Origin: Paracoccaceae bacterium | Lineage (GTDB): Bacteria; Pseudomonadota; Alphaproteobacteria; Rhodobacterales; Rhodobacteraceae | DNA length: 39,573 nucleotides | Assembly (NCBI GenBank): GCA_002712045.1 | Contig: PARX01000056.1 | Span: 1 to 39,573 of the forward strand | Direction of reading: 5' to 3' | Shown here: piece by piece, positions 5,685 through 29,784 of the stretch | Position numbering within the stretch: position 1 is the first letter of the stretch | Layout of the letters: each line of letters starts with the position of its first letter | Program-made: the position numbers and the translations under genes | Notes under the pieces: generated by a model | The model's database searches: none | What the model was told of the DNA's origin: nothing | Seen by the model: only the letters and a program-made list of their open reading frames with translations

Positions 5685-6908
5685 CTAATTTTTTCTTCTC
5701 ATAAATGAAGGAATATCATACTCTTCCTCAGTTGACATTCTCAGTTTATCAAGATCATCACCTTCAGGTGAATTATTTCCAAACACATTAGGGCTTTCTT
5801 TCTTATTTTCTTCAATATTTTCATGATCCTCTAAGTTTATTTTTTCATTTTCATTTTCATTTTCATTTTCATCAGCGTCATAAACAAATTCTCTCATAAC
5901 ATCATTATTATTTTGACTTGAATCTTTAGCTAAATTTAATTTTTCTTCTTCTTTTAAGTAGGACAAACCTGTAGCAACCATAGTAACTCTTATATCGTTA
6001 CCCATTGAATCATCTATTACATTTCCAACAATTACATGAGCATTCTCTGCAGCATATTGTTTAATTGTATTCATAACTTCAAAATATTCCTTCATTTTAA
6101 AATCACTACTTGCAGAAATATTTACTAACATTCATTTCGCATTATTGAGATTAACATCTTCTAATAATGGACATGCAACTACTTGTTTTGTAGCATTTGA
6201 TGCCCTGTCTGAACCTTCTGCTGTTCCTGAGCCAATCATTGCCATACCCATTTCACTCATAACAGTTTTAACATCAGCAAAATCTACATTAATCAATCCT
6301 GGATTATTGATAATTTCAACAATACCTGAAACTGCACTGTACAAAACATCATTTGCAGCTCCGAATGCATCTACAAAAGTTACATCAGGGCCAAGGACGC
6401 CCATTAATTTTTCATTTGGTATAGTAATAAGTGAGTCAACATGATTTACAAGTTCATCAATTCCATCATTTGCAATTTGAACCCTTCTTCCTTCAAAATT
6501 AAATGGTTTTGTAACAACAGCTACAGTTAAAATACCTAACTCTTTAGCAATTTGTGCTATTACAGGAGTAGCTCCAGTACCTGTACCACCTCCCATTCCA
6601 GCAGCAAGAAAAAGCATATCAGCCCCTTCAAGAGATTCAATTATCTTATCTTTATCGTCTAATGCAGCTTGTTTACCTTTATCTGGTCTTGCTCCAGCAC
6701 CAAGTCCTTGAGTTAAAATTTCTCCGATTTGTACAATTGTGCTTGCTTGACTTTTTTTTAATGATTGTAAATCAGTATTTGCGCATATAAATTCAACTCC
6801 CATTACATTCTTTTTAATCATGTAATCAACAGCATTGCCTCCGCAACCACCAACACCCATAACTTTAATAATGGCTTTTTGCTTTTTACCTTCTATGACT
6901 TCAAACAT
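5685..6908 (-). pseudogene. ftsZ: cell division GTPase FtsZ, interrupted as sequenced by one in-frame TGA (6132-6134); could also be an error or a recoding/reinitiation site
   Basis: ORFs 6132..6920 and 5685..6131 are contiguous and in the same frame. Joined, they give a 407-residue reading frame (counting from MFEV, TGA codon excluded). It has [29 protein letters not shown], a variable linker and the C-terminal DIPSFMRRK peptide. The likely start is the ATG at 6906-6908 (MFEV..., as in E. coli MFEP...). Confidence 0.85.
5842..5871 (-). repeat. hexanucleotide tandem repeat (TTTTCA on +, TGAAAA on -) x5, encoding (Glu-Asn)n in the FtsZ linker
   Basis: Five perfect consecutive 6-nt units were read directly. 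They translate to DENENENENEK in the disordered linker of FtsZ. Confidence 0.9.
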
Positions 6909-6926
6909 AATCAATCTCACATCGCA

Positions 6927-8189
6927 TTAAAAGTTTCCTTTGAACCAATTTTTTGCTCTTTTTAAAATTTCACTCACTGAATTTCCAGTACCTGATTTGT
7001 ATTCACTCTTTTCTACATCACTTTTACCCATAATTAATAAACCTACTCCAGTTGCATATCTTGGGTTCTCTACAACCTGTAAAAGTCCATCAATATTTCT
7101 TGGTATACCAATTCTAACAGGCATATTAAATATTTTCTCCCCTAACTCAACCATACCTTTTAACATAGAAGATCCCCCAGTAATTACAATCCCTGAAGCA
7201 ATTGTACTTCCCATTCGACTTCTATTAATTTCATTTTGTACTTTTTCAAAAAGCTCCTCTATTCTTGGCTCTATAACTTGAGCCAAAGCCTGAGTTGTTA
7301 TTCTTTTAGGTGCTTGACCATGAACAAGAGGTATCTCAATAATTTCATTAGTAGATGACAAACTTGGCATAGCAGACTCATATGTTTCTTTAATATCTGA
7401 TGCAGATTGGGTTGGAGTTTGAAAGGCAATTGCAATATCATTGGTTATTTGATCACCAGCAACAGGAATTACAGAAGTATGTTGAAATGCTCCATTTTTA
7501 ATTACAGCAATATCAGTGGTTCCTCCTCCAATATCAATTAGACACACACCTAATTCTTTTTCATCTTGAGTTAAAACAGCTTCACTTGAAGCTAAAGGCT
7601 GAAAAACCAAATCAATAACCTCCAAGCCACATCTTCTTATACATTTAATAATATTCTGACGTGCAGCAATTGAACCAGAGATCATATGAACTTTAACATT
7701 AAGTTTCATTCCGCTCATCTCTAATGGCTCTTTAATATCTTGTTGATCATCAATGATATATTCTTGAGGTAGTGTATGTAGAACTTCTTGATCAGTTGGT
7801 AGATTAATTGCTTCAGCTGTTTCTCTAACTCGATCGATATCCATTTGCGTTACTTCTTCATCTTTAATTTTTACCATACCATGAGAATTCAAACTTTTAA
7901 TATGACTTCCTGCAATTCCAGTATATACCTCGGTTATTTTACAATCTGCCATTAATTCTGCTTCTTCAACAGCTCTCTGTATTGCCTGCATTGTGTTATC
8001 AATATTAACAACAACACCTTTTTTTAGGCCTTTTGATACATGTTGGCCCTTACCAATAATTTTTAAAACACCATCAGATTGTAACTCAGCAACAATTACA
8101 ACTACCTTTGATGTTCCTATATCAAGAGCAGAAATTCTTGTATTTTGGTCTTTTTTACTTTTCATTATTGGTGGAATAACGTTATTCAT
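6927..8189 (-). CDS. ftsA: cell division protein FtsA
   Basis: 420 aa actin-like ATPase with ALDIGTSKVVVIV, DIGGGTTDIAV and VITGGSS motifs. Confidence 0.95.
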   Translation of the reverse strand: MNNVIPPIMKSKKDQNTRISALDIGTSKVVVIVAELQSDGVLKIIGKGQHVSKGLKKGVVVNIDNTMQAIQRAVEEAELMADCKITEVYTGIAGSHIKSLNSHGMVKIKDEEVTQMDIDRVRETAEAINLPTDQEVLHTLPQEYIIDDQQDIKEPLEMSGMKLNVKVHMISGSIAARQNIIKCIRRCGLEVIDLVFQPLASSEAVLTQDEKELGVCLIDIGGGTTDIAVIKNGAFQHTSVIPVAGDQITNDIAIAFQTPTQSASDIKETYESAMPSLSSTNEIIEIPLVHGQAPKRITTQALAQVIEPRIEELFEKVQNEINRSRMGSTIASGIVITGGSSMLKGMVELGEKIFNMPVRIGIPRNIDGLLQVVENPRYATGVGLLIMGKSDVEKSEYKSGTGNSVSEILKRAKNWFKGNF

Positions 8190-8932
8190 AATGCAGTCTT
8201 TTTTTGTTTATTTATCTTATTTAATTTTTCATTAAGTTTTTTTACTGCAAATCCATCCTTATATCTAAGATCTATATACTCGATTTGACTTTTCAATTCT
8301 GATAAAACATGATGATAATTTTCCATTAAGATATTTAATTTATTAACAATAATATTATTTTTTTCCTTGCCTAAAAAAATTCTCATATAATTGTTTGTAT
8401 AAATTTCCCATGATAATCTTTTCGATAATGAGATTGTACCAATTTGCATCGACTCTTTCTCAAGAATTTTATTTATTTGATTATATTTTACTGTCATTTC
8501 TTCAACAAACTCCTCTGGGCCAACAAATAATGGTAAATCATCTTCATATGCAGCATGAAATATTTCTCCAAAATTGTTAACAAGCCCACGATTTTTCCAT
8601 CTTGCAATTGGTTTATGTGATTCAATTTCTACCAATAAGCCAAAATTATTCCAATCTCTTCGAATACTTACGTCCCTTATCCAAGGTAATTTTTTAAAAG
8701 CTTGTCTTGTAGATTCAAGATTGATTCCAAAAAAATTCTCATTTATAAACTTGTTTTTAATCAAGTTAATTTGTCTTTTATTTATATTTTCATATTCCCC
8801 CTTTATACCTATTTGAGTTATTGGAAAATTAGAACTTGTCATTAATTGATAACTTAAAAATATTAAAGTTAAAAAAATGAATATATAAACAGTAGTTGTA
8901 ACTTTTCTTATTGTGCTTTCCTTTTTAAGCAT
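8186..8932 (-). CDS. ftsQ: cell division protein FtsQ
   Basis: 248 aa with an N-terminal TM helix followed by POTRA-like IKGEYENINKRQI...LPWIRDVSIRRDWN. Sits between ddl and ftsA, and its stop makes an ATGA overlap with ftsA. Confidence 0.88.
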   Translation of the reverse strand: MLKKESTIRKVTTTVYIFIFLTLIFLSYQLMTSSNFPITQIGIKGEYENINKRQINLIKNKFINENFFGINLESTRQAFKKLPWIRDVSIRRDWNNFGLLVEIESHKPIARWKNRGLVNNFGEIFHAAYEDDLPLFVGPEEFVEEMTVKYNQINKILEKESMQIGTISLSKRLSWEIYTNNYMRIFLGKEKNNIIVNKLNILMENYHHVLSELKSQIEYIDLRYKDGFAVKKLNEKLNKINKQKKTAL

Positions 8933-9845
8933 TTGATGTCTCTAAAATCATAATTACTAAATCATCAAAACTAATTCCAGAATATTTTGCAGACATTGGC
9001 ACAAGGCTATGATTTGTCATTCCAGGGACTGTATTGACTTCAATAATAAATATTTTTTCATTTTCATCAATTATAAAATCTACTCTACCACATCCTTCAC
9101 ATCCAATAGAATCAAAAGCTTTTTTACATTCTTGATTAATATTTTTAACTAATTTTTCACTAAGTTTAGCGGGGCAAATAAATTCAGTGTCATCTCTTAA
9201 ATATTTAGCCTCATAGTCATAAAAATCAGTTTTAGATCTAATCTCTATAATAGGGTATGTTTTGTTATGAATAATAGGTAAGGTGTACTCCTTTCCCTCA
9301 ATTAAAGATTCAACAATAACGATTTTATCAATTTTGGATGCTTCATTGAATGCATTTGCAAACTCTTGGTGATTATTGACTTTTGCAATACCAATACTTG
9401 AGCCTGAATTTGCTGGTTTAATAAAAAAAGGTAATTTACATATTTTTGAAGCTATTTTAAAATCTGATATATTTTTGACCTGCAAAAAATCAGGTGTGAT
9501 GATATTTTTCTTTTTCCAGACTGTTTTACATCTAAATTTGTCCATACCTACAGACGAGGAATCAATTCCACTTCCAGTATAAGGAATATTTATTTTTTCT
9601 AAAAAATTTTGTATTTTTCCATCTTCACCATCTTTTCCATGAAGACAAATAAAAGCTCTATCAAATTTTTTTAACTGTTCTAAATCATCAATTTTTGGAT
9701 CGAATCTTTCTGCAACTATTTTTTTTCTACGAAGTGCATCTAAAACTGCAATTCCACTTTCTAATGAAATATCTCTTTCATTAGAAATTCCACCCATTAA
9801 TACAGCTACTTTGCCGTATTGACTAGCTTCCAAATTTTTCTCCAA
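8925..9845 (-). CDS. ddl: D-alanine--D-alanine ligase
   Basis: 306 aa. Motifs VAVLMGGISNERDISL, HGKDGEDGKIQ and ATP-grasp EVNTVPGMT. Confidence 0.95.
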   Translation of the reverse strand: MEKNLEASQYGKVAVLMGGISNERDISLESGIAVLDALRRKKIVAERFDPKIDDLEQLKKFDRAFICLHGKDGEDGKIQNFLEKINIPYTGSGIDSSSVGMDKFRCKTVWKKKNIITPDFLQVKNISDFKIASKICKLPFFIKPANSGSSIGIAKVNNHQEFANAFNEASKIDKIVIVESLIEGKEYTLPIIHNKTYPIIEIRSKTDFYDYEAKYLRDDTEFICPAKLSEKLVKNINQECKKAFDSIGCEGCGRVDFIIDENEKIFIIEVNTVPGMTNHSLVPMSAKYSGISFDDLVIMILETSNA

Positions 9846-10698
9846 TTATTTTTATTTCTGTTTGAAGTGTTATATTTTTCTTCTTTAAAACTACTTGTTG
9901 TATGTGATCAATCACTTTTTCAATATCTAATGCACTAGCATTCCCTAAATTAACGATAAAATTTGCGTGTTTTTTTGAAACTTGAGCCCCTCCAATTTGA
10001 AAGCCTTTTAATCCACAATCCTCAATTATCTTTGCAGCAAAATTATCTTTTGGGTTTCGAAAAGTTGAGCCTGCCGTTGGCCAATTTAATGGTTGTGTTT
10101 TTTTTCTATGTGACAATAATTCTTTTATCTTATTTTTTGCATCTTCTTTATTTCCATTTGGAAACTGAAACCATGCTCCAAGAAAACTTTCATCTTTATT
10201 ATTAACCTCTCTATAATCAATTTTAAAATTTGATTTATTTCTAATAATTTGGTCACCATTTAAATCAATCATTAATACTTTTTTTACATATTCCCATGTT
10301 TCTGAACCATAGCAACCTGCATTCATTGCTAGAGCCCCACCTATGGTTCCTGGAATTCCGGCAAAAAAAGCTGATTCATCAAACCCTTCTTTAGCTGCAA
10401 ATCTTGATAACTTTGAACAACTTACTCCAGCTTCAGCATAAAGTAATTTACCATCTCTATTTATTTTATTTAAACCACCATGCATCACTATTATTGTTCC
10501 TTTAACTCCCCCATCTCTAATTAATAAATTAGAGCCTAGTCCAATATAAGTAATAGGCGGCTTTATTTTTTTTGATTTAATATGTAAAGCAAGTTTTGCT
10601 ATGTTGTCACAAATTAAAAATTGTTCGGCTTTTCCTCCAACCCGCCAACTATTGAAGCTCTTTAATTCTACATTTTGATGAACAATATTTTTTTCCAT
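9823..10698 (-). CDS. murB: UDP-N-acetylenolpyruvoylglucosamine reductase
   Basis: 291 aa with FAD-binding motifs WRVGGKAE and IGLGSNLLIRD, then AGSTFRNP. Overlaps the ddl start by 23 nt. Confidence 0.93.
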   Translation of the reverse strand: MEKNIVHQNVELKSFNSWRVGGKAEQFLICDNIAKLALHIKSKKIKPPITYIGLGSNLLIRDGGVKGTIIVMHGGLNKINRDGKLLYAEAGVSCSKLSRFAAKEGFDESAFFAGIPGTIGGALAMNAGCYGSETWEYVKKVLMIDLNGDQIIRNKSNFKIDYREVNNKDESFLGAWFQFPNGNKEDAKNKIKELLSHRKKTQPLNWPTAGSTFRNPKDNFAAKIIEDCGLKGFQIGGAQVSKKHANFIVNLGNASALDIEKVIDHIQQVVLKKKNITLQTEIKIIGEKFGS

Positions 10699-10701
10699 AT
10701 T

Positions 10702-12081
10702 TTATTTTTTTATAATTTGCTTAATAAAATTTCCAACTGAACCAGCTCCCATTACAATAAGAATTGAATTATCTTCAATTAAATCAAATATAGTATTTTT
10801 TGCTGTCTTAAAATTAGGTAGATAATGAACATCTTGTTTCTTAATAGACTTAATTAAATTTCTTGTTGTAATATTTTTTATAGTTTTTTCACCAGCCGAG
10901 TAAATATCAAAAAGAAAAACCTTATCTGGAATTTTTAAAACTCTTATAAATTCTTTATAACAATCTCTTGTTCTTGAATACCTATGTGGCTGAAAAACTA
11001 AATAAATTCTTTTTTTACTAAATCCCTTTTTTGTTGCTTTAATTACCGCTTCAATTTCAGTTGGATGGTGCCCATAATCATCAATAACTTTTAATCTTTT
11101 ATCTTTGATTAAAATATCATCGTATATCTCGTATCTCCTAGCCACTCCTTTAAAGTTACTTATTGATCTTTTAATATTACTTATAGATACACCATATTCA
11201 AGACCAATTGAAATTGCTACAAGAGTATTTCTTACAAAATGTTCGCCAGGAAAATTAATTCCAATTTCAAATTCATCTTTTTTATATTTTTTATCTCGAA
11301 CTTTAAAATACATCTTACTGCCATCATATCTTACATTTAGTCCTTGAATATCTGCTTTACTTGAAAAACCATATGTAGTTATTGGTCTTGATATTAAAGG
11401 TATGATACTTTTTACATGTTCATCATCTAAGCATAAGAAGACAGATCCATAAAATGGTACCTGATGAATAAAATCAATATAAGTTTGTTTCAAATTTTCG
11501 AATTTATTCTGATAGGCCTCTAAATGATCTTTGTCGATATTAGTAATAACTGCATTTACAGGATTTAAATGAAGAAATGATGCATCTGATTCATCAGCCT
11601 CTACAATCATTAAATCACTCCCTCCAAGTTTTGCATTTGCATTCATTGAGTTAAGTCTGCCACCAATGACGTAAGTTGGGTCTAGTTTTCCTTCAGAGAG
11701 TATTGAAGCAATTAAACTAGTTGTCGTTGTTTTTCCATGTGTTCCTGCAACTGCAATACCTTTTTTAAATCGCATTAATTCAGATAACATTTCTGCTCTG
11801 GGAATAATCGGTATTTTATATTTAATTGCAGCTTTAATTTCTGGATTGCGTTTAGAGATGGCTGCTGAAATAACAACAACATCTGAATGTATAACATTTT
11901 TTTCTAAATGCTTATTAAATACTTTTATTCCTAATTTCTTTAAACGTTGGATCGCTTCAGATTTTCCAAGATCTGAACCCTGTACTTTAAATCTTAAATT
12001 GTGCATGACCTCAGCGATTCCGCTCATACCAGAACCACCAATTCCAACAAAATGTATATTTTTAATTTTATTTTCCATCAA
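10702..12081 (-). CDS. murC: UDP-N-acetylmuramate--L-alanine ligase
   Basis: 459 aa. Motifs IHFVGIGGSGMSGIA, AVAGTHGKTTTTS and DDYGHHPTEI. Confidence 0.95.
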   Translation of the reverse strand: MMENKIKNIHFVGIGGSGMSGIAEVMHNLRFKVQGSDLGKSEAIQRLKKLGIKVFNKHLEKNVIHSDVVVISAAISKRNPEIKAAIKYKIPIIPRAEMLSELMRFKKGIAVAGTHGKTTTTSLIASILSEGKLDPTYVIGGRLNSMNANAKLGGSDLMIVEADESDASFLHLNPVNAVITNIDKDHLEAYQNKFENLKQTYIDFIHQVPFYGSVFLCLDDEHVKSIIPLISRPITTYGFSSKADIQGLNVRYDGSKMYFKVRDKKYKKDEFEIGINFPGEHFVRNTLVAISIGLEYGVSISNIKRSISNFKGVARRYEIYDDILIKDKRLKVIDDYGHHPTEIEAVIKATKKGFSKKRIYLVFQPHRYSRTRDCYKEFIRVLKIPDKVFLFDIYSAGEKTIKNITTRNLIKSIKKQDVHYLPNFKTAKNTIFDLIEDNSILIVMGAGSVGNFIKQIIKK

Positions 12082-13144: not shown

Positions 13145-13154
13145 AATTTTAAAT

Positions 13155-14324
13155 TTATTTGTTATAGTGTTGTCCTCTCAAATTTCTTCTATTCTCATGA
13201 TCAATTCTAAGTACTATTGCTATAGCAATTACACTCACTAAAATACTACTACCTCCAAAAGATAATAATGGGAGTGTTAAGCCTTTGGTAGGAAATAATC
13301 CTAAATTTACAGCCATATTAATTATGCATTGAATGGAAAACCATATAGCTACCCCTTGTGCCATTAAAGCACCAAAATGTTTATTATTTTGTATAGACTC
13401 TTTTGCAATACCAAACATCCTTAGCACCAAAAATGCAAATATACCTAAAACAATACTTACACCCAATAAACCAAATTCTTCGCCAATAATTGCCATAATA
13501 AAATCTGTATGCGCTTCGGGTAAAAAAGAAAGTTTTGCGAAACTATTTCCTACGCCGATGCCAAAAAACTCCCCTTTTCCAAAAGCCATTTGTGCTTGAG
13601 TTATTTGATAACCACCATCTAGTATGTGCTCTGGAGACCAAGGATCTCTGAATGCCTCAATTCTTGCTAATCTGTATGGTGATGACTTTATTGCTAACAA
13701 GACTCCAATTGGAGCCAATATAGCTAAACTTACAATAACTTTTAAGGTCAATCCACCCAAAAATAGAATACCCATTGCAATCGAAGAAATTACAATTAAA
13801 GCACCAAGATCTGGTTCTAAGATTACTAATGAACCGGTTAAAATCATAATCCCCAAAATAGGTAAAAAACCTTTAACAATAGTTCTCATTTGCTTTGATT
13901 TTCTTAAAACATAATCTGATGCATACATTATTGTAAAAAGCTTAACTATCTCTGTAGGTTGAAAGTTTGCAATTCCTAATGGAATCCATCTTCTACCACC
14001 TTTACTTTCTATACCAATAGGCGTTAAAACTAAGACTAAAAGAATTACCCCTATTAAAAACAAATAAGGGGCCCACCTTTGCCAGAAATAAACTTGTATT
14101 AGGAAAGAAATGTAGCCACATATAAAAGCAATTAACAAATAAGCTGATTGCCTGAGTAAAAAATAATAATGTTGGTATTGGAATTCCTGTTTACCAGCAG
14201 CAAGATCAATCGATGCAGAATAGACCATAACTAAACCAATACCTATAAGCAAAAGTGCTGCCCAGATTAAGCTGTAATCATAAATTGGTAAATTATAATT
14301 TTTTTGGGAAGAAAAAAGTTTCAT
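13155..14324 (-). CDS. ftsW: SEDS-family peptidoglycan glycosyltransferase FtsW
   Basis: 389 aa polytopic membrane protein with FQPTEIVKL and LPEAHTDFIMAIIGEEFG motifs, at the canonical dcw position. Confidence 0.93.
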   Translation of the reverse strand: MKLFSSQKNYNLPIYDYSLIWAALLLIGIGLVMVYSASIDLAAGKQEFQYQHYYFLLRQSAYLLIAFICGYISFLIQVYFWQRWAPYLFLIGVILLVLVLTPIGIESKGGRRWIPLGIANFQPTEIVKLFTIMYASDYVLRKSKQMRTIVKGFLPILGIMILTGSLVILEPDLGALIVISSIAMGILFLGGLTLKVIVSLAILAPIGVLLAIKSSPYRLARIEAFRDPWSPEHILDGGYQITQAQMAFGKGEFFGIGVGNSFAKLSFLPEAHTDFIMAIIGEEFGLLGVSIVLGIFAFLVLRMFGIAKESIQNNKHFGALMAQGVAIWFSIQCIINMAVNLGLFPTKGLTLPLLSFGGSSILVSVIAIAIVLRIDHENRRNLRGQHYNK

Positions 14325-14327
14325 ACT

Positions 14328-15658
14328 TTATAAATTCTCCACAATAGACTTAAATTCATTACCACGTTCTTCATAATTTTTATACATATCATAACTAGCA
14401 CATGCAGGCGATAATAGAATGATATCTCCATTTCCTGCATCCTTATATGCTGATAAAACTGCATCTAGCATTAACTTATATTTTTTTATCTTAAGTGAAT
14501 CTATAAATCTGAAATTTTCTTCAAAAATATGTGCATCTTGACCAATTAAATAAAGAGCTAATACCTTTTTTTTTATAAATTTCTCCAAAGGCATTAAAAA
14601 TTGACCTTTACTATCACCACCAGCAATTAAAAAAATATTTTTTTGTTAAAACTTTTTAAAGCTGTAATTGTTGCATCTAAATTAGTCGCTTTTGAGTCGT
14701 TGTAAAAATCTACACCGTTTATACTTTTAACCCACTCTAATCGATGACTAATACCTTTTAAATTATTAATTCTTAAATTACTTAATTCTGGAAAAACCGA
14801 TTTTAAGCATGCAATTGCAGACATAATATTTAATTTATTATGTTCGCCTATGAGTTTAAAATTATTTAATTCAATAGATAATCCATCACCTCTTTTTATA
14901 TAAGAACCAGAATCATTATTTATTATTACGTAGTCTTCTTTTTTTAAGGGTTCTGAAATACCAAAAGAGAAATTCACTTTATTATTAAAAGAACTTAATT
15001 TTTCATCGTCCCTATTAATAATTTTAGTTCTTGATAAATCAAGTAATTTTGATTTAGCCTTAAGATATTTACTGAAAGAATTATATCTATCCATATGGTC
15101 TTCTGAAATATTTAGAATAATTCCAACATCAATTTTAGCTTTATTTAATATTTCGAGTTGAAAACTTGATAGTTCAATAATCAAAACATCTAAAGTATCT
15201 ACATTTTTGAAATCTAAAATTGGCAAGCCTATGTTTCCTACTGCCTTTGCTTTTAATCCAGATTCTTGTGACAATTGTTCAATCATTTTACAAACTGTAG
15301 TTTTACCATTTGTCCCAGTTACAGCAATAACTTTTGTTTCTAATAATTCATTTTCATCAAAAAATAACGAGATATCATTATGGAACTTAATTTTTTTTCT
15401 TATTTTATTTAATACGGGATGGCTAGGATCTATTCCAGGACTAATTGCAACATAATCAACACCTTCAAAAGATAATTCTTCTAAATTACCTGAAAAGAAT
15501 AAATTTTTTTCATTATCAAACAACTTTTTTGCATTATCCAAAGCATTTTTATTTTCATCATAAAAAGATATTTTAATATTGTTTTTTAAATATCTTCCAA
15601 TAGATATGCCTGTTTGGCCGCAACCTAAAATTAATACATGATTGATATTTCCATTCAT
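14328..15658 (-). pseudogene. murD: UDP-N-acetylmuramoylalanine--D-glutamate ligase MurD, frameshifted as sequenced (1 nt apparently missing in the A7-TAT-T7 tract around 14629-14645)
   Basis: The N-terminal ORF (14627..15661: ILGCGQTG, VTGTNGKTTV, NDSKATN) ends ...NKKIFF-TAA. The other frame continues from 14645 as (Q K N I F) LIAGGDSKGQ...[22 protein letters not shown]. This is colinear with E. coli MurD (...LLLGGDGKSAD...[22 protein letters not shown]). Confidence 0.85.
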
Positions 15659-16761
15659 CAACGAATCTTCAAACTAGCCAATCCAATTAGGACAAGCATC
15701 ATGGTTATGATCCAGAACCTAACTACGACTTGTGTTTCTTTCCATCCTTTTTTTTCATAGTGATGATGAAGCGGAGCCATTAAAAAAATACGTTTACCTT
15801 TTCCAAATTTCTTCTTTGTATATCTAAAGTAAGCTACTTGTATTGCTACTGAGAATGTCTCAATCACAAATATTCCAGCCATAATCATTAAAACAATCTC
15901 TTGCCTTACAATTACTGCTAGAGTTCCCATTGCAGCTCCTATTGATAGTGAGCCTAAATCACCCATAAATACTTCAGCAGGATATGCATTAAACCAAAGA
16001 AAACCTAAGCCTGCTCCTGCTAATGCTGCGCAAAATACAGTTAACTCACCTGCACCTTGTATATATGGAATACTGAGATAGTTTGCAAAAATTACATTGC
16101 CTTCAACATAAGCAAAAACTCCCAATGCACTTATCACCATAACAGCTGGCATAATAGCCAGCCCATCAAGACCATCGGTTAAATTGACGGCATTACTGCT
16201 TCCTACTACAACCAAATAACTTAAAATAATAAATACCAATGCACTCATTGATAAACTTAAATCCTTAAAAAATGGGATCAATAATTGAGTTTCTTGAGGA
16301 GTTGAAGCTGAATAAAATAAGTAGGTTGCTACACCCAACCCAATAATTGATTGAAGTATAAATTTTTTAAAAGCTGAGAGTCCATCTGCCTCTTTTTTTT
16401 GAATTTTACTAATGTCATCGATTAAGCCAATTAACCCAAAAGAAGTGGTCACAATAAGTAAGAGCCATACATATGAATTACTTAAATCTGCCAATAATAA
16501 TGTAGAAATAATAATTGAAATTAATATTAAACCCCCTCCCATTGTTGGGGTTCCAGATTTTACAAGATGTCCCTCTGGACCATCATTTCTAATATATTGA
16601 CCAAGGCTGTATTCTCCTAATTTTTTTATAAACCAACCACCAAAACAAAATGAAATTAATAAAGAAGTTATAACTGCTAAAACTGCCCTTAAAGAAATAT
16701 AATTAAATACATTAAAACCTGGAATGTCTGTTGAAAACCATCTAAATAATTCTAATAACAT
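15658..16761 (-). CDS. mraY: phospho-N-acetylmuramoyl-pentapeptide transferase
   Basis: 367 aa. Motifs [19 protein letters not shown] and [12 protein letters not shown]. Confidence 0.96.
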
Positions 16762-18118: not shown

Positions 18119-19562
18119 TTTTTACTCCAAAATATTTATTTAGGTATTTTTTTGCTATTAACTTATCTGAAAAATCTTTTTTAACTCCATTTATTTCTTG
18201 ATACGTTTCATGACCCTTTCCAGCAATAAGAATTAAGTCATTTACATTAGCTTTTTTTAAAACTTCTTTAATTGCAATTTCTCTGTTTTCAATGGCTAAA
18301 TAAGGTACTTCTAAATTCAGACAAATATCATCAATTATCTGCATAGGCTCTTCATTTCTTGGATTGTCTGAAGTGACAATTACATAATCTGCAAACTGAT
18401 TAGCGATTAGAGCCATTTCTTTTCTTTTTCCTCTATCTCTGTTACCCCCGCAACCAAAAACAATATTTAAATTTTTATAAGGTAATTTCTCTAATGAATT
18501 TAAAATATTTTTTAATGCATCTGGAGTGTGAGCATAGTCTATAATAACTTTTGGGCATTTATCTATTTCAGTCTTTACTTCTTCAGATCTTCCCGGTACT
18601 GAATCTAAAATTTTTAATATAGGCCTGATATTCTCTATTTGATATCCTAAAGAGACTAAAGAACCAATTACAGCAAGTATATTATAAATGTTATAAACTC
18701 CTTGAACTGCAACTTCAAGTTTATAAATCTTTCTTCTATAAATTAAATCAAATTTAGTTTTATATTTTTCTAAGGTTAAATTTTTTGCTTGAAGTGTAGC
18801 TAAATTTTCAATTCCGAAGGATATTTTTTTAGATTTATTTAATTTTGATTCTTGAAATATTTTTTTACCTAAAGGATCGTCTATATTTATAACCAAATTA
18901 CCTTTTTTAGCATCTAATAAAAAATTTTTCTTTATTTCTGCATAACTTTCAATGGAATCATGATAATCAAGATGATCTCTAGAAAGATTTGTAAACAATC
19001 GTACATTAAAATCAAGGCCAGTTACCCTACCCTGATCAATTCCATGAGATGATACTTCAAGACATACATCTTGAACATCTTCAAGAAGAAAATAATTTAT
19101 GATACTTTGAATTTTAACTCCATCAGGAGTTGTATTTATACTTGGTTTCAACTGATTAATCGAACCATAACCAATTGTACTAATTATATTAGCTTTTCTT
19201 TCAAGATTTTCTAGACATTGAGTTAGCCAAAAAGCAGTAGAAGTTTTACCGTTAGTTCCCGTTATACCTATTAAGTTTATTTTTTTAGATGGATTATTAT
19301 AAAATTCACTTGCAATACTTGAAATATTTTCTTTCAAGTTTTTAATTGGCATGTTAGGTAACTTCCATTTCTTATCCCATTCAAATCCTAAAGGGTCATA
19401 TATAATTGCCCCAGCTCCATTATTTATGGCTTCTGGTATATAATTTCTTCCATCATTACTTTCTCCTGGATATGCCAAAAAAATCGAGTCATTTTTTATA
19501 TTCGCACTATTTTGCTCCAAATATTTAAATTCAGTTAATAGTTTTTTTAATGAATCGCTCAT
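18114..19562 (-). CDS. murE: UDP-N-acetylmuramoyl-L-alanyl-D-glutamate--2,6-diaminopimelate ligase
   Basis: 482 aa. Motifs GITGTNGKTSTA, HTPDAL and the DNPRNE motif. Confidence 0.95.
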   Translation of the reverse strand: MSDSLKKLLTEFKYLEQNSANIKNDSIFLAYPGESNDGRNYIPEAINNGAGAIIYDPLGFEWDKKWKLPNMPIKNLKENISSIASEFYNNPSKKINLIGITGTNGKTSTAFWLTQCLENLERKANIISTIGYGSINQLKPSINTTPDGVKIQSIINYFLLEDVQDVCLEVSSHGIDQGRVTGLDFNVRLFTNLSRDHLDYHDSIESYAEIKKNFLLDAKKGNLVINIDDPLGKKIFQESKLNKSKKISFGIENLATLQAKNLTLEKYKTKFDLIYRRKIYKLEVAVQGVYNIYNILAVIGSLVSLGYQIENIRPILKILDSVPGRSEEVKTEIDKCPKVIIDYAHTPDALKNILNSLEKLPYKNLNIVFGCGGNRDRGKRKEMALIANQFADYVIVTSDNPRNEEPMQIIDDICLNLEVPYLAIENREIAIKEVLKKANVNDLILIAGKGHETYQEINGVKKDFSDKLIAKKYLNKYFGVKN

Positions 19563-21334
19563 AATTTTCTCTTATCAGCATAGACCTCTTTTTTATTTTG
19601 CATCTCTTCAAGTTCTAGACCATCAGCATCGAGACTATACCATTCAAATGCTTTTGCCATAACCCTACTAAAAACTGGTCCAGCTAATGTACCTCCAGAA
19701 TACCCTCTTTTTTTAAGAGGTTCATCAATGACTACTGCCATTACAAATCTTGGATTTGTTACTGGGCCTAAACCAACAAAAGAGCTCATATACTTATCTC
19801 TCAAATAACCTCCATTTACTGGATCTGTTTTCCATGTTGTACCTGTCTTTCCAGCTACACGATAACCATATACTTTTGCTTTTGGTGCTGTTCCATCATG
19901 ATCTGTTACGGATTCAAGCATTGTTAACATAGCTTTTGAAGTCTCAGGTGATAAAACCCTTTTACTTATCTTTAAATCATTACTTTTAATTAGAGATATA
20001 GGCACAAGTTTTCCTTGATTAGCAAAAACTGTATAAGCTTGCGCTGTTTGAATAAGTGTAGAACTTATACCATACCCATAACTTGCCCTAGAATGGTCTA
20101 TTTTTTTCCATTTTGTATGATTTCTTATGGTGCCTCTCACCTCACCAGGGAAATTAATGCCCGTTTTAACTCCATAACCAAATTTTTTCAACATTGTGGC
20201 TAAATTAATTTAGCTAATTTTTTGACTGATCTTTGCCGAACCTATATTCGAAGATACTTTAATTACATCTTTTACAGTTATTTCGCCATAAGCTTTATGA
20301 TCTTCAATCCATTTTCCTTCATATTTATACTTACCATTACCTGTATCTATTAAACTATCCTTTGTAATAATATTTTTTTCTAATGCAACTGCTAAACTTA
20401 TTGGTTTGATGGTAGAACCTGGTTCAAATACGTCAGTTACTGCTCGATTTTTGATAAATTTACCAACTTTATTATAGCCATTGGGGTTAAATGAGGGGTA
20501 ATTTGTCATTGCAAGAATCTCACCAGTTTTTGCATCCAACAAAACAGCTGAGCCTGATAGTGCTTCATGTTTTTCTATAGCTTTTCTAAGAGCATTATAA
20601 GCTTCATTTTGTAATCTCAAATCAATTGTTAGTCGTATATCCTCACCATCTTTTGGTAACTTTATAGCCTGAAATTCTCCTATAACTCTGGGAGTTCTTT
20701 TTCCATCTATAAGATTAATTTTTTTACCTTTTTCACCAGCAAGAGATTTATTCATTATCATTTCTATACCCTCTTGCCCATTTCCATCACTTCCAGTGAA
20801 TCCAACAACATGTGCAACAGGTCCGTTCTCAGGATAAAATCTTTTATATATTTTATTTGTACTAATACCTTTTATTCCAAGTTTCATAATTTTATTTTTG
20901 GTATCAGGAGAAATATTTTTTTTAAGTCGAACCGCTCTTCTCTTTTTATTTTTAAGTTTTTTATCTAAGTCTATTTCTCTCAACTTTAACAAACTAGCTA
21001 ATTTTTTCTTTTGCTTATTAAGAGTAGCTTGGGTATTTGAATCTTTATTTTTAAAATTAATTTTTGCTGCATCGCCTATTATTGAATAGACAGGAGTACT
21101 TTCAGCTAAAAGCGAACCATTTCGATCTAAAATCTTACCCCTATAAGGATATAAATCTAGTTCTCTATGTTGCCTTTGCCTAGATTCTTTTTGAAGTTTA
21201 TTTTTTTCAAATGCTGCAAGTTTAATTGCTTGTGCAAATAAAACTAAAAACATTCCAAGTATTAATATTAAAACTATGCGTCTCCTAGCTTTTGATAACT
21301 CAAAATATTCTTTTCTTGATCTAATTTTATTCAT
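19559..21334 (-). pseudogene. ftsI: peptidoglycan D,D-transpeptidase FtsI (PBP3), interrupted as sequenced by one in-frame TAA (20210-20212)
   Basis: ORFs 20210..21334 and 19559..20194 share a frame. The junction reads ...SSNIGSAKISQKIS-TAA-INLAT-MLKKFGYG..., the same length as E. coli ...SSNVGVSKLALAMPSSALVDTYSRFGLG.... The STIK and SSN motifs lie upstream of the stop and KTGT lies downstream. Confidence 0.85.
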
Positions 21335-21589: not shown

Positions 21590-22528
21590 TCATTTTGCCT
21601 CCATTACTTTTTCTATTACTCTCAATTTTTCACTTCTAGATCTTGGATTTTGTTTGATTTCTTCTAAATTAGGAATAATCATTTTTTGTACAATCTTAAA
21701 AGGTGCTAATTTTATTTCCGATAACTTGATTGGAATTTTTTTTGAAATAAAATCTGTTTTCATTTGAAGTTTTGTATAATTTTTTACAATTCGATCTTCT
21801 AATGAATGAAAACTTATCACTACTAATCGACCCTTCGGTTTCAAGGATTTAAAAGCTATTGGTAGAGCATTCTCTAACTCTTCAATCTCTTTGTTAACGT
21901 AAATTCTTAAAGCCTGAAATGTTTTTGTTGAAGGATCTTTTTTTGAATTTTTTATTGGGACCGTATTTTTGATTAATTCAGCTAATTCCAATGTCTTTTT
22001 TATTGGGCCCTCATTTTCTCTATACTTAATGATTGCTTTGACAATTTTTTTTGCAAACTTCTCTTCTCCGAAGTTTCTGAGTATATCTACCAAGTCTTTC
22101 TCTTTATATGTATTTAAAACTTCTGCAGCAGTTATTCCTTTACTTTGATCCATTCTCATATCTAAAAATGCATTAGACTTAAAACTAAATCCCCTTTTAG
22201 CTTCGTCGACTTGTGGTGATGAAATTCCTAAGTCCATTAAAATACCATCCAGTTTTTTAATATTTTTTTTTTTTAATATTTTGTCCATTTCTGAAAAAGC
22301 ACAGTGATGAATTTCAAATCTTTTATCTTTTATCTTCTTTCCTTCATTTATTGCATCTAAATCTTTATCTAAAGCTATTAAGCGGCCTTCACTGTCAAGT
22401 AATTTTAATATTTCCTTTGAATGTCCTCCTCTACCAAAAGTGCAGTCAAGATATATTCCATTTGATAAAATAGACAAAGCATCGATCGTCTCTACTAACA
22501 TAACGGGAATATGAGAATTTACTTTCAC
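21590..22528 (-). CDS. rsmH: 16S rRNA (cytosine1402-N4)-methyltransferase
   Basis: 312 aa. HIPVMLVE, DCTFGRGGHS and DLGISSPQ motifs. GTG start overlaps the mraZ TGA (GTGA). Confidence 0.95.
   Translation of the reverse strand: MKVNSHIPVMLVETIDALSILSNGIYLDCTFGRGGHSKEILKLLDSEGRLIALDKDLDAINEGKKIKDKRFEIHHCAFSEMDKILKKKNIKKLDGILMDLGISSPQVDEAKRGFSFKSNAFLDMRMDQSKGITAAEVLNTYKEKDLVDILRNFGEEKFAKKIVKAIIKYRENEGPIKKTLELAELIKNTVPIKNSKKDPSTKTFQALRIYVNKEIEELENALPIAFKSLKPKGRLVVISFHSLEDRIVKNYTKLQMKTDFISKKIPIKLSEIKLAPFKIVQKMIIPNLEEIKQNPRSRSEKLRVIEKVMEAK
22263..22274 (-). repeat. 12-nt homopolymer (T12 on +, A12 in the rsmH mRNA), in frame (..L KKK N..)
   Basis: Read directly from the sequence. It lies inside the intact rsmH ORF. 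Confidence 0.95.
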
Positions 22529-23081: not shown

Positions 23082-23282
23082 CACTTTTTATAAAAAATTA
23101 TTATTCTTCAATTAGTTAAAGCATTTTAAATGCCAAAATTAAATATCGTATTTGACTAAATTTCATCTTTTGCCAGATAAAATAATAGTAGAATTAATGT
23201 TTTTTTTAATTAGAAGCTGGAAAAAAATATAGAGATAAATTAGCTTTTATCGAAAAAATATATGGTAAACAATATAATTTTT

Positions 23283-23570
23283 AAGTTGACCGATAAGCCG
23301 GGTTCTGTCTGGGACAGTCATTCATCTAGGCATACAATTACTTATATGCTCAAGCAGCCTACCCGGTAGCAACACGAGCAATGTTAATGCTACCCTATTT
23401 GGCCTTGCTCCGAGTGGAGGTTACCGCGTTTCACCGTAACTTAATACGCTCGTCTCTGTGGCCCTGTTCCTCACCTTACGGCGTATGGCTGTTAGCCATC
23501 ACTCTGCTCTTTGGAGCCCGGACTTTCCTCTACATAGAAAACTATATAGCGACTGTCTGGTCAACTTAAG
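23283..23570 (-). ncRNA. rnpB: RNase P RNA, bacterial type A, compact (about 287 nt)
   Basis: The reverse complement reads aagttgaccagacagtcgc...GAGGAAAGTCCGGGCTCC...CCACTCGGAGCAAGGCCAAATAGGG...CCGGGTAGGCTGCTTGAGC...CCTAGATGAATGACTGTCCCAGACAGAACCCGGCTTATCGGTCAACTT. These match the universally conserved P4/CR-I, CR-IV and CR-V blocks and the P1 pairing of E. coli M1 RNA. It is a GC-rich island in AT-rich DNA. Confidence 0.93.
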
Positions 23571-28131: not shown

Positions 28132-28148
28132 GTTTATGATGTCTTAAT

Positions 28149-29690
28149 ATGAAATTTGATCTTGAACATGACTGGCAAGGTAATATGTCAACACCCAGAA
28201 AAAATCTAGGTGAAAAAACTAAATTACATTTATTTTTTGTACTATCATTAATTTTTCTCTTGACGGGATTAATTGGCCATGAACCTTGGCGACCTCTTGA
28301 ATCAACTTCAATTAGCATTATTCTTGATATTGTACAAAATAATCACATAATTCTTCCAATGGCAGCAAGTGAAGATTTCATTACAAATCCACCTTTATAT
28401 GCCTATGTTGGAGCAGCATTTGGAAAACTTTTTTCACCAATACTTGACTTACATGATGCAGCTAGACTTTCTAATATTTTCTGGCTATCACTTACTTTAA
28501 TAAGTCTTGGCTTAATGACAAGAGAGTTATGGGGACAAGGTTTTGGGCGTCAGGCTGGTTTAATTTTCATAGGATCAGTTGGTTTAATATTAAATATTCA
28601 TAGCTTGATACCAGAAATAGCTACACTTTTAGGTTATACGATGAGTCTTTATGCTTTTTCGTTATATTTTAGAAGGCCTTTTAGGGCAAGTATGGTTCTT
28701 GGTTTTGGATCAAGTATAGCTTTTCTATCAGGAGGTATTGTTCCCTTATTAATTATCTTTTTAACGTCTTTATGTTTGCTAATTTTCAAGAATTGGAGAA
28801 ATAAAAGATATTTTATCTTTATTGCAATTTCATTTGTTATTAACCTCTTGATTATAACTCCATGGTTATTTTCTTTTAATTATTTACAACCTGATCTGTT
28901 TAATTCTTGGTTAACATCTCTAAGATTCTCATCAAAGTTATTATTCAATTATCACCTTCAAGGGATTTTATGGTTTACCTGGCCGGCCCTTCCATTATCA
29001 ATCTGGTTAATTATTAAAGACCACAAAGAAATCTTTAATAAGAAAAAACTACAAATTCCAATTATTTTCTTGCTAGTTTTACTAATTATATTATCAATAA
29101 CAAGCAAACCTAATCAAACAAACCTTATTCCTTTTACTATTCCTTTATCAATCATTGCAGTTGGCGCAATAGATAGATTAAATAGAAGTGCGGCAAGCGC
29201 CTTAAATTGGTTCGGTATCTTAATTTTTGGTTTTATTGGTTTTTTAATTTGGTTGGGTTGGTTTGCAATGATGACTGAGATACCTGAAAAAATTTATGAA
29301 CGTATGTTTTTTCAATCTGCAAATTATATTGCTGAATTCGAATTATTTAGTTTTATTTTTGCTGCAGTTATAACAGCATTATGGTTAGCTTCAATCATTA
29401 AATTTAAAATTACTAATCGATCAGTAATATCCAATTGGGCAATTTGGATTACAATGGTTTGGGTTACATTAATTATGCTTTGGACTCCATTCATTGATAA
29501 TCGTAAAGACTACAAATTAATTTTTACTGATGTAAAACAGCAACTTATAAAAAGTTCGACTTGTGTTTATGTCCATAATCTTTCAGATAGCCAAATAAAC
29601 TTATTACATTACTATACTGGGATTAAAGGTACTGATTCAAATTTAGAAAATAAAGCTTGTAGATTAGCCTTGATCTCATTAAAAAAATAA
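28149..29690 (+). CDS. polytopic membrane glycosyltransferase, ArnT/PMT (GT-C, family 39-like); the ORF may really continue to 29783
   Basis: 513 aa with at least 10 hydrophobic segments. The N-terminal region (LTGLIGHEPWRPLE...NPPLYAY) resembles the first periplasmic loop of ArnT-like enzymes. The assignment is by architecture and motif memory only. An alternative start is Met at 28185. The TAA at 29688 is followed in frame by 30 stop-free codons. Confidence 0.6.
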   Translation: MKFDLEHDWQGNMSTPRKNLGEKTKLHLFFVLSLIFLLTGLIGHEPWRPLESTSISIILDIVQNNHIILPMAASEDFITNPPLYAYVGAAFGKLFSPILDLHDAARLSNIFWLSLTLISLGLMTRELWGQGFGRQAGLIFIGSVGLILNIHSLIPEIATLLGYTMSLYAFSLYFRRPFRASMVLGFGSSIAFLSGGIVPLLIIFLTSLCLLIFKNWRNKRYFIFIAISFVINLLIITPWLFSFNYLQPDLFNSWLTSLRFSSKLLFNYHLQGILWFTWPALPLSIWLIIKDHKEIFNKKKLQIPIIFLLVLLIILSITSKPNQTNLIPFTIPLSIIAVGAIDRLNRSAASALNWFGILIFGFIGFLIWLGWFAMMTEIPEKIYERMFFQSANYIAEFELFSFIFAAVITALWLASIIKFKITNRSVISNWAIWITMVWVTLIMLWTPFIDNRKDYKLIFTDVKQQLIKSSTCVYVHNLSDSQINLLHYYTGIKGTDSNLENKACRLALISLKK

Positions 29691-29784
29691 AAAGAAATAC
29701 CAGCAGAATATAAATTGTGGGGGGAGATTTGGACTGGAAAACGCTTAATTGATAAAAATTATTTTGTTTTATTAAATAAATAAG

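What the first reader, a model, noticed from the sequence alone, without database searches (positions are those of the whole stretch)
5685..29783. Pattern: several lesions in otherwise intact cell-envelope genes, while TGA and TAA behave as ordinary stops everywhere else
Four ORFs are affected: ftsZ (TGA), ftsI (TAA), murD (1-nt frameshift) and the GT-C glycosyltransferase (TAA). All retain full colinearity and conserved motifs on both sides of the lesion.

All four act on division or the envelope. Such genes make up about half the window, so this clustering is not statistically compelling.

A genome-wide code change is excluded. TGA terminates at least 10 genes here: the SDR, lpxC, ftsQ, mraY, ftsI, ftsL, rsmH, mraZ, rsmI and dolP. 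Most of these are classic ATGA/GTGA stop-start overlaps. TAA terminates most of the others.

Three scenarios remain:
- low-quality consensus, for example a single-cell or metagenome assembly
- very recent relaxation of selection on septation and peptidoglycan in a host-associated or otherwise unusual lineage
- gene-specific recoding or reinitiation
Basis: inference. Interest (0 to 1): 0.65.

Follow-up and report, generated by a model that had tools for sequence, protein, structure and literature searches.

The report
Scattered consensus errors, not envelope decay
The four broken cell-wall and division genes are really in this deposited contig, but they belong to about forty unselected, damage-like base changes spread evenly over the contig and absent from dozens of near-identical ocean contigs, which points to a faulty consensus and not to biology.

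Summary
All four lesions exist as described: ftsZ TGA (6132-6134), ftsI TAA (20210-20212), a murD 1-nt deletion (A7 run, 14638-14644) and GT-C TAA (29688-29690). TGA ends 10 other genes.

The window is one whole deposited contig of a marine OM43-type Methylophilaceae. It is 99.9% identical to metagenome contigs from independent samples. Those contigs carry GGA, TCA, A8 and GAA at the four sites. The intact proteins occur on 20-41 contigs each, the broken ones only on this contig.

The contig has 39 private substitutions and 2 homopolymer indels (about 1 per kb), evenly spaced. Seventeen substitutions are G:C>T:A. None of these is synonymous and three are the nonsense codons. Random G:C>T:A changes here would give 13.7% nonsense, so 2.3 are expected.

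Private missense changes hit invariant residues (MraY W90L, Ddl W248C, FtsA G271E, LpxC N213D), and they hit non-envelope genes as well. Non-synonymous changes split 15 envelope to 12 other. Natural polymorphisms among the population contigs are 9/10 synonymous.

Verdict: an unselected, oxidative-damage or error-like scatter, meaning a poor consensus. It is not envelope-specific decay or recoding.

Separately, rsmH carries a poly-A tract that is out of frame in most relatives.

The parts
5685..6908 (-). ftsZ, 407 codons, interrupted by one in-frame stop
   Evidence: It is colinear with intact FtsZ of sister loci over its full length. The same-population protein P0121 (407 aa) is identical except at codon 259.
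6132..6134 (-). TGA in place of GGA (Gly259) in ftsZ. The change is C>A at 6134 on the + strand, G>T on the coding strand.
   Evidence: This Gly is invariant in 69/69 loci. Population contigs L086-L090 all have GGA.
14328..15658 (-). murD, read in two frames (343-codon N part and 88-codon C part)
   Evidence: MurD is one 443-aa protein in the same population (P0264 on 36 contigs).
14638..14644 (-). A7 run where the population and the sister species have A8. This 1-nt deletion causes the murD frameshift.
19559..21334 (-). ftsI, 591 codons, interrupted by one in-frame stop
   Evidence: FtsI is intact at 591 aa in L081/L082/L085. P0243 occurs on 32 contigs.
20210..20212 (-). TAA in place of TCA (Ser375) in ftsI. 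The change is G>T at 20211 on the + strand.
28149..29783 (+). ArnT-like (GT-C) membrane glycosyltransferase, 544 codons, interrupted by one in-frame stop 31 codons before its real end
   Evidence: Homologue P0001 (544 aa, on 41 contigs) covers the tail. There is no Pfam or NCBIfam hit; the name comes from source annotations only.
29688..29690 (+). TAA in place of GAA (Glu514) in the glycosyltransferase. The change is G>T at 29688.
29445..29445 (+). Second private G>T in the same gene: GGG>TGG, Gly433Trp
   Evidence: All homologues fetched have Gly here.
16493..16493 (-). Private G:C>T:A change: MraY Trp90Leu
   Evidence: Trp is invariant in 73/73 loci.
9090..9090 (-). Private G:C>T:A change: Ddl Trp248Cys
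   Evidence: Trp occurs in 73/74 loci.
14095..14095 (-). Private G:C>T:A change: FtsW Pro77Gln
   Evidence: Pro occurs in 72/80 loci.
7378..7378 (-). Private G:C>A:T change: FtsA Gly271Glu
   Evidence: Gly occurs in 70/72 loci.
5048..5048 (-). Private A:T>G:C change: LpxC Asn213Asp
   Evidence: Asn is invariant in 61/61 loci.
34717..36012 (.). Private G:C>T:A missense changes in non-envelope genes: FdsB Met206Ile (34717), FdsG Gly155Val (35344) and MoaA Asp19Tyr (36012). Three more lie elsewhere: 4605 (orf61 L45I), 21630 (RsmH A300E) and 22806 (MraZ Q53K).
   Evidence: These show that the scatter is not confined to envelope genes.
22263..22274 (-). Poly-A tract in rsmH. It is A12 here (in frame) and A11 (out of frame) in the same population. 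This is the second private homopolymer indel.

Best explanation
The four lesions are not a property of the organism. The window is one complete deposited contig (39,573 nt) of a free-living marine OM43-type Methylophilaceae. Its consensus carries about 40 changes that no other sample of the same population shows.

The dominant class is G:C>T:A transversion. This is the change produced when 8-oxo-guanine in damaged template, or a G/T miscall at low coverage, is copied into the consensus. G:C>A:T changes and two homopolymer-length slips come with it.

G and C in this 30%-GC genome sit mostly at first and second codon positions, in codons such as GGA, GAA and TCA. About one random G:C>T:A change in seven therefore makes a stop codon. 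Seventeen such changes give two or three nonsense codons by chance. Half of the coding sequence is envelope or division genes, so it is unremarkable that the visible breaks landed there.

Shown:
- the changes are private to this contig;
- their spectrum;
- the lack of any selective filtering;
- their uniform placement;
- the intact state in the population and in sister species.

Inferred: the physical cause. Candidates are damaged template in whole-genome amplification of a single cell, or low-coverage or low-quality reads. The reads are not available to me.
For: 1. The lesions are in the public record and only there. The broken products (FtsI 374+211 aa, MurD 343+88 aa, GT-C 513 aa) are on record from one contig of 39,573 nt. 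The intact forms sit on 32, 36 and 41 contigs, and intact FtsZ on 20.

2. Same-population contigs from independent samples (Tara, JGI, ENA) are 99.87-99.9% identical to the window and agree with each other against it. They cover window 6-16907 and 18148-39573.

3. Outside a divergent end tract there are 39 private substitutions and 2 indels:
- G:C>T:A 17
- G:C>A:T 13
- A:T>G:C 6
- A:T>T:A 2
- A:T>C:G 1
Thirty of the 39 fall at G:C sites in 30% GC sequence (p = 2e-9).

4. All 17 G:C>T:A changes are missense (14) or nonsense (3), none synonymous. Exhaustive enumeration of random G:C>T:A changes gives 13.7% nonsense, 76% missense and 6.6% synonymous. That predicts 2.3 nonsense against 3 seen, with P(>=3) = 0.42.

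5. Placement is uniform (KS p = 0.88 and 0.91). Non-synonymous changes split 15 envelope to 12 other (p = 0.70). G:C>T:A changes split 11 to 6 (p = 0.33).

6. Missense changes hit residues invariant across about 70 betaproteobacterial loci: MraY W90, Ddl W248, FtsA G271, LpxC N213 and RsmH A300.

7. Internal controls show what real divergence looks like here. Polymorphisms among the population contigs are 9/10 synonymous. The divergent tract 26-460 has 53 nt differences but only 7 aa differences. Fisher tests against the private set give p = 7e-4 and 5e-8.

8. Sister loci L001, L002 and L006 (about 60 kb of dcw cluster) have no broken gene apart from the rsmH tract.

9. G>T from oxidised guanine is a documented preparation artefact (PMC3616734). 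Amplifiable lesions become fixed errors when few template molecules are amplified (PMC5144678).
Against: - No reads, coverage or allele fractions could be examined, so 'error' is inferred from pattern only.
- About 1 error per kb is far worse than a normal Illumina consensus. It requires an unusual cause: very low coverage, or a single damaged template.
- The sister single-cell assemblies do not show such a scatter in this region.
- All four frame-breaking lesions lie in envelope or division genes (one-sided p = 0.06).
- Some private changes are probably genuine strain differences. These include 11 synonymous changes, four of them clustered in pyrC, so the error count is an estimate.
- One of the two homopolymer changes restores the rsmH frame. 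In-frame A12 alleles do occur naturally in relatives, so that change may be real.
Confidence: 0.8

Rival explanations
1. The changes are real mutations, or unrepaired lesions, in one cell. The contig would faithfully record a single cell that had suffered a burst of oxidative (GO-type) mutagenesis, such as a mutY/mutM-deficient hypermutator or a cell dying under oxidative stress. It would have been captured before selection could act.
For: - The spectrum (G:C>T:A plus G:C>A:T, AT-biased) is also the spectrum of raw mutation in bacteria and of GO-repair defects.
- The changes are unfiltered by selection, as new mutations would be.
- The nearest genomes in the collection are single-cell assemblies.
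Against: - The rate is 1.5e-3 G:C>T:A per G:C site. Scaled to a genome of roughly 1.3 Mb (my own estimate for OM43-type genomes, not measured here), that implies hundreds of such changes and dozens of nonsense codons.
- Breaks in ftsZ, ftsI and murD, plus substitutions at invariant residues of MraY, Ddl, FtsA and LpxC, occur within 39 kb. No dividing lineage could carry this load.
- At most this would be damage in a dead or dying cell. In practice that cannot be told apart from template damage.
Confidence: 0.1
2. Very recent relaxation of selection on septation and peptidoglycan synthesis in a host-associated or otherwise unusual lineage, so that the envelope genes are turning into pseudogenes.
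For: - All four frame-breaking lesions lie in envelope or division genes.
- GC content is low at about 29%, which at first glance recalls symbionts.
Against: - The organism belongs to a free-living marine plankton population found in many Tara, JGI and ENA samples, with intact genes at 99.9% nucleotide identity.
- Damaging changes are as frequent in formate dehydrogenase, molybdenum-cofactor, tRNA and rRNA genes as in envelope genes: 15 to 12, p = 0.70.
- Each broken gene has exactly one single-nucleotide lesion and no deletions.
- Sister species are intact.
- The clustering itself has p = 0.06.
Confidence: 0.03
3. Gene-specific recoding. TGA in ftsZ and TAA in ftsI and GT-C would be read through, or translation would restart at the ATG after the ftsZ TGA. 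The murD frameshift would be bypassed by slippage on the A run.
For: - The ftsZ TGA is followed immediately by ATG.
- The murD shift lies in an A7 run next to a T7 run.
- A conserved slippage-type tract does exist nearby in rsmH. Poly-A slippage rescue is known from AT-rich endosymbionts (PMC5009743, PMC3017870).
Against: - None of the four sites is conserved. The same population and three sister species have GGA, TCA, GAA and A8.
- The ATG after the TGA is the ancestral Met260 codon, not a new start.
- The split would cut FtsZ inside its C-terminal domain at an invariant Gly.
- TGA and TAA act as ordinary terminators in all other genes.
- The window holds no tRNA gene and no RNA element other than RNase P RNA.
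- A7 is short for efficient slippage (my own knowledge).
Confidence: 0.02

Closest known systems
Oxidative-damage (8-oxoG) G>T / C>A artefacts of library preparation, and lesion-derived errors fixed when few template molecules are amplified (PMC3616734; PMC5144678)
   Same: - G:C>T:A is the dominant private class (17 of 39).
- The two strands are hit about equally (9 C>A and 8 G>T on the + strand).
- The changes are absent from independent samples of the same population.
- They show no sign of selective filtering.
   Different: - In deep sequencing these artefacts are low-frequency. Here they are in the consensus, which needs very low coverage or a single damaged template.
- The CCG>CAG context reported for shearing damage is not seen. 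Contexts here are mostly TCA and CCA, close to background.
- The cause could not be checked without reads.
Pseudogene formation under relaxed selection in host-restricted bacteria with reduced genomes (my own knowledge)
   Same: Low GC content, single-nucleotide nonsense and homopolymer frameshift lesions, and AT-biased changes.
   Different: - The lesions are not shared with any relative, even at 99.9% identity.
- They are not enriched in one functional class.
- They come with radical substitutions at invariant residues of many essential genes at once.
- The organism is an abundant free-living marine plankter.
Frameshifts in poly(A) tracts rescued by transcriptional slippage in Buchnera and Blochmannia (cited in PMC5009743; Blochmannia vafer, PMC3017870)
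   Same: The murD lesion is a 1-nt loss in an A run of an AT-rich genome. The neighbouring rsmH tract (A10-A12) behaves like the conserved endosymbiont cases.
   Different: The murD A7 state is private to this contig and the run is short. Only rsmH shows conservation of an out-of-frame state across lineages.
Stop-codon reassignment: TGA=Trp in table 4, TGA=Gly in table 25 (my own knowledge)
   Same: The ftsZ TGA sits exactly at an invariant Gly.
   Different: - There is one such TGA only.
- Ten genes end in TGA, mostly in ATGA/GTGA overlaps.
- The population has GGA at the site.
- The deposited annotation itself treats TGA as a stop: the 211-aa FtsI fragment ends at TGA.

Membership tests
Sequencing / template-damage artefact in a consensus | Variants are private to one assembly and absent from independent samples of the same population | tested here: met
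   All 41 changes are absent from 3-5 near-identical contigs per site. Broken proteins occur on 1 contig, intact ones on 20-41.
Sequencing / template-damage artefact in a consensus | Spectrum dominated by a damage-type class (G:C>T:A, G:C>A:T) | tested here: met
   17 G:C>T:A and 13 G:C>A:T out of 39. Thirty of 39 fall at G:C sites in 30% GC sequence, p = 2e-9.
Sequencing / template-damage artefact in a consensus | No selective filtering: proportions of synonymous, missense and nonsense changes match random placement | tested here: met
   G:C>T:A changes are 0 synonymous, 14 missense and 3 nonsense. The random expectation is 6.6%, 76% and 13.7%. Natural polymorphisms are 9/10 synonymous.
Sequencing / template-damage artefact in a consensus | Uniform placement across the contig and across functional classes | tested here: met
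   KS p = 0.88 and 0.91. Non-synonymous changes split 15 envelope to 12 other.
Sequencing / template-damage artefact in a consensus | Weak, low-depth or orientation-biased read support at the variant sites | not testable with these tools
   No reads or coverage for the source assembly are available.
Pseudogenes from relaxed selection on the envelope | Lesions are shared by, or fixed in, related genomes of the lineage | tested here: not met
   Same-population contigs and sister species L001, L002 and L006 have intact ftsZ, ftsI and murD. GT-C is intact in the same-population contigs and in relatives' proteins, including that of the L002 contig.
Pseudogenes from relaxed selection on the envelope | Damaging changes are enriched in the functional class under relaxed selection | tested here: not met
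   Non-synonymous private changes split 15 to 12 over equal amounts of coding sequence.
Programmed recoding (readthrough, reinitiation, frameshift) | The recoding site is conserved in orthologues | tested here: not met
   Sense codons and an in-frame A8 run are found at all four sites in every relative examined.
Programmed recoding (readthrough, reinitiation, frameshift) | Full-length product made from the interrupted gene | not testable with these tools
   Needs proteomics or reporter assays.
Genome-wide stop-codon reassignment | The reassigned codon recurs in frame at conserved positions and is not used as a terminator | tested here: not met
   There is one in-frame TGA and two in-frame TAA. 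TGA ends 10 genes and TAA ends most of the others.

The most novel reading that the evidence does not exclude
The contig is an accurate read-out of one planktonic cell caught just after a burst of 8-oxo-guanine mutagenesis, from a GO-repair-deficient mutator or a cell hit by oxidative stress in sunlit surface water. The 39 private changes would then be a direct, selection-free sample of the mutational pressure that drives these streamlined genomes to 30% GC.
Probability: 0.07. Interest if true: 0.45.

Novelty: not a real feature. Interest (0 to 1): 0.12.

Why it matters
Taken at face value, broken ftsZ, ftsI and murD would suggest a wall-less or host-dependent lifestyle in an abundant ocean methylotroph. 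That conclusion would be wrong.

The case also shows three practical points:
- Truncated products from such a contig have already entered the public protein databases.
- In a 30%-GC genome, a modest number of G>T errors yields stop codons at a rate of about one in seven.
- Consensus quality can be judged without reads. The method is to compare a contig with near-identical metagenome contigs and to ask whether its private changes look filtered by selection.

The one feature in the interval that may be real biology is the rsmH poly-A tract, listed under things noticed in passing.

Tried and rejected
- murF as a fifth lesion. It has no ATG/GTG/TTG for about 120 codons, but sister species share the same ATT-AAT-ATT start region behind a GGAG, so this was rejected.
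- Annotation under table 25 (TGA=Gly) as the reason an intact 407-aa FtsZ (P0121) was listed with the marking used for window-encoded proteins. Rejected, because the deposited 211-aa FtsI fragment ends at TGA. The marking is probably a near-identity rule. This remains unresolved and does not affect the conclusion.
- Exact look-ups of the window's MraY and FtsA found nothing. Both carry private substitutions, which explains it. I reached population contigs through P0001 and P0121 instead.
- A second, decaying copy of the dcw cluster. Rejected: the window is syntenic and 99.9% identical to the population's contigs over all of the 97% that they cover, and non-envelope genes are hit too.
- Sequence context of the C>A changes shows no CCG enrichment. 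Contexts are close to background.
- Strand bias: 9 C>A and 8 G>T on the + strand. On the coding strand the split is 12 to 5, in line with its G excess. Neither is informative.
- The first metagenome pattern for the rsmH tract found nothing. A looser pattern gave 24 contigs.
- Pfam and NCBIfam give no hit for the GT-C protein, so its family name rests on source annotations only.
- Window 16908-18147 is not covered by any same-population contig I fetched and was not compared.

Full report
**What the window is.** The window is a dcw (division and cell wall) cluster on the minus strand, with flanking genes, at about 29% GC. The nearest genomes in the species-representative collection are marine Methylophilaceae single-cell and metagenome assemblies. 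FtsW is 81-84% identical to L001, L002 and L006, and these loci are colinear with the window at 78% nucleotide identity. An exact-sequence look-up shows that the broken products of the window are in NCBI nr from a single contig of 39,573 nt. These products are FtsI at 374 and 211 aa, MurD at 343 and 88 aa, and GT-C at 513 aa. The window is therefore one whole deposited contig, and the lesions are part of the public record.

ftsZ has an in-frame TGA at 6132-6134, followed by ATG. ftsI has an in-frame TAA at 20210-20212. murD changes frame in an A7 run at 14638-14644. The ArnT-like glycosyltransferase has a TAA at 29688-29690 followed by 31 open codons that homologues of 544-548 aa cover. TGA ends ten other genes and TAA most of the rest. 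Envelope and division genes are 50.0% of coding bases.

**Comparison with sister species.** L001, L002 and L006 have GGA where ftsZ has TGA, TCA where ftsI has TAA, and A8 where murD has A7. The ftsZ codon is a Gly that is invariant in 69 of 69 betaproteobacterial loci. Over about 60 kb, these three loci have no broken gene other than rsmH. murF lacks a canonical start in the window and in the sisters alike, so it is not a lesion.

**Comparison with the same population.** The read-through glycosyltransferase and FtsZ have essentially identical full-length homologues: P0001 (544 aa, 41 contigs) and P0121 (407 aa, 20 contigs). Contigs carrying them come from independent Tara, JGI and ENA samples and are 99.87-99.9% identical to the window. 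They cover window 6-16907 and 18148-39573. All have intact ftsZ (GGA), murD (A8, 443 aa), ftsI (TCA, 591 aa) and the glycosyltransferase (GAA).

**The lesions are part of a larger private set.** The first 460 nt form a divergent tract. Outside it, the window differs from all population contigs at 39 substitutions and 2 homopolymer indels, while those contigs agree with each other. Polarised from population to window, the substitutions are:

| Class | Count |
|---|---|
| G:C>T:A | 17 |
| G:C>A:T | 13 |
| A:T>G:C | 6 |
| A:T>T:A | 2 |
| A:T>C:G | 1 |

Thirty of the 39 fall at G:C sites in 30% GC sequence (p = 2e-9). All three nonsense codons are G:C>T:A changes. So is a Gly433Trp change in the same glycosyltransferase.

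**Coding effects look unselected.** Of the 39 substitutions, 11 are synonymous, 24 missense, 3 nonsense and 1 intergenic. None of the 17 G:C>T:A changes is synonymous. Enumerating every possible G:C>T:A change in the window gives 13.7% nonsense, 76% missense and 6.6% synonymous. Seventeen such changes therefore predict 2.3 nonsense codons, against 3 observed, with P(>=3) = 0.42. The high nonsense yield follows from the AT-rich codon usage, with GGA, GAA, TCA and TGG frequent.

Positions are uniform along the contig (KS p = 0.88 for the transversions and 0.91 for all). Non-synonymous changes split 15 in envelope genes to 12 in others (p = 0.70). G:C>T:A changes split 11 to 6 (p = 0.33).

The missense changes include substitutions at residues that are invariant or nearly so across about 70 loci:

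| Protein | Change | Residue conservation |
|---|---|---|
| MraY | W90L | 73/73 |
| Ddl | W248C | 73/74 |
| FtsA | G271E | 70/72 |
| LpxC | N213D | 61/61 |
| RsmH | A300E | 68/68 |
| FtsW | P77Q | 72/80 |

Formate dehydrogenase and molybdenum-cofactor genes are hit too: FdsB M206I, FdsG G155V and MoaA D19Y.

**Internal controls.** Sites that vary among the population contigs are 9/10 synonymous. The divergent tract 26-460 has 53 nucleotide differences but only 7 amino-acid differences. Both differ sharply from the private set (Fisher p = 7e-4 and 5e-8). Real divergence in this very contig is thus strongly filtered by selection, and the private set is not.

**Interpretation.** A lineage cannot carry nonsense or frameshift lesions in ftsZ, ftsI and murD together with radical changes at invariant residues of MraY, Ddl, FtsA and LpxC within 39 kb. 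At 1.5e-3 G:C>T:A per G:C site, a genome of roughly 1.3 Mb (my own estimate for OM43-type genomes) would hold dozens of nonsense codons.

The pattern is that of changes never exposed to selection. G>T from oxidised guanine is a documented preparation artefact (PMC3616734). Lesions in the template become fixed errors when few molecules are amplified (PMC5144678). G/T miscalls at very low coverage would look the same (my own knowledge).

The alternative is that the changes are real but only in one damaged or mutator cell. The sequence alone cannot exclude this. It leads to the same practical conclusion: this is not the genotype of a living lineage.

Relaxed selection on the envelope is contradicted by the even split between functional classes and by the intact population. 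Recoding is contradicted by the lack of conservation at all four sites. The ATG after the ftsZ TGA is the ancestral Met260 codon. No tRNA, and no RNA element other than RNase P RNA, lies in the window.

**Side finding: rsmH.** The second private indel lengthens a poly-A tract in rsmH from A11 to A12 (22263-22274) and puts the gene in frame.

- In the same-population contigs and in L001, L002, L003, L004 and L007, the gene is split at this tract. The downstream part is always in the -1 frame. RsmH identity falls to 57% across these lineages. By contrast, 62 other betaproteobacterial loci give one full-length match.
- In the protein database, most close relatives (72-100% identity) are 215-aa C-terminal fragments.
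- Among 24 further metagenome contigs of the clade, 19 have A11 (out of frame), 3 have A12 and 2 have A10+GA (both in frame). A11 and A12 occur with identical flanking sequence.
- In-frame states are also seen in L091-L096.

Both halves stay open and conserved in the out-of-frame lineages. Expression by transcriptional slippage or a -1 ribosomal shift on the A run is therefore plausible, and so is phase variation. I found no report of this. RsmH methylates 16S C1402, and its loss alters frameshifting and UGA readthrough (PMC13245932, citing Kimura and Suzuki 2010). A feedback loop is therefore conceivable, but that is speculation. A technical undercount of long A runs cannot be fully excluded without reads.

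**Verdict.** The pattern is ordinary.

Noticed in passing
window 22263-22274 (- strand, rsmH 21590-22528); also L001 about 2060-2075, L002, L003, L004, L007, L081 about 4116-4126, L091-L120: rsmH carries a poly-A tract (A10-A12, '..ILKKK|NIKKLDG..') that is out of frame by one missing A in most marine OM43-type relatives. This holds for the same population (A11), for 5 sister lineages down to 57% RsmH identity, and for 19 of 24 further metagenome contigs. Both halves stay open and conserved. In-frame A12 or A10+GA variants coexist with it, and the window is A12. 62 other betaproteobacteria give one full-length match with no such frame split. Candidate explanations are conserved transcriptional-slippage or -1 frameshift expression, or a phase-variable switch, in a 16S C1402 methyltransferase that itself affects frame maintenance. 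No report was found.
   Followed up: yes
window 18110-18128 (- strand), start of murF (16775-18118): murF has no ATG/GTG/TTG for its first 120 or so conserved codons. The open frame begins right after the murE stop, with GGAG, then 6 nt, then ATT AAT ATT. This arrangement is conserved in L001, L002 and L006. It is probably an ATT start codon. Public gene calls truncate the protein to 323 aa.
   Followed up: partly
window 1-460 (argA, + strand): The left end of the contig is about 12% divergent from the population contigs: 53 differences in 435 nt, mostly third-codon positions, only 7 amino-acid changes. It then switches abruptly to 99.9% identity. This is either a recombination tract or a strain-chimeric contig end.
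   Followed up: partly
window 23903-24256 (pyrC, - strand): Four private synonymous changes lie within 354 nt of pyrC, unlike the rest of the private set. They probably mark a small genuine recombination or strain-variant patch.
   Followed up: no
window 23278-23568 (- strand): RNase P RNA (class A, 254 bits) lies in the gap between mraZ and pyrC. It is the only Rfam match, and the window has no tRNA genes.
   Followed up: yes
window about 5800-5850 (- strand, ftsZ linker): The FtsZ C-terminal linker has an Asn-Glu (NE) dipeptide repeat. In near-identical population proteins the linker differs only by insertion or deletion of two residues within this repeat (P0122 409 aa, P0124 405 aa, against 407 aa). 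This is natural repeat-length polymorphism.
   Followed up: no
window 39384-39573 (+ strand): The right end of the contig stops inside a tandemly repeated part of a TonB-like gene. Population contigs differ in repeat copy number here, which probably caused the assembly break.
   Followed up: no
window 28149-29783 (+ strand): The 'GT-C/ArnT-like' glycosyltransferase has no Pfam or NCBIfam match at all, although hundreds of homologues exist in marine Methylophilaceae. Its family assignment rests on source annotations only.
   Followed up: partly
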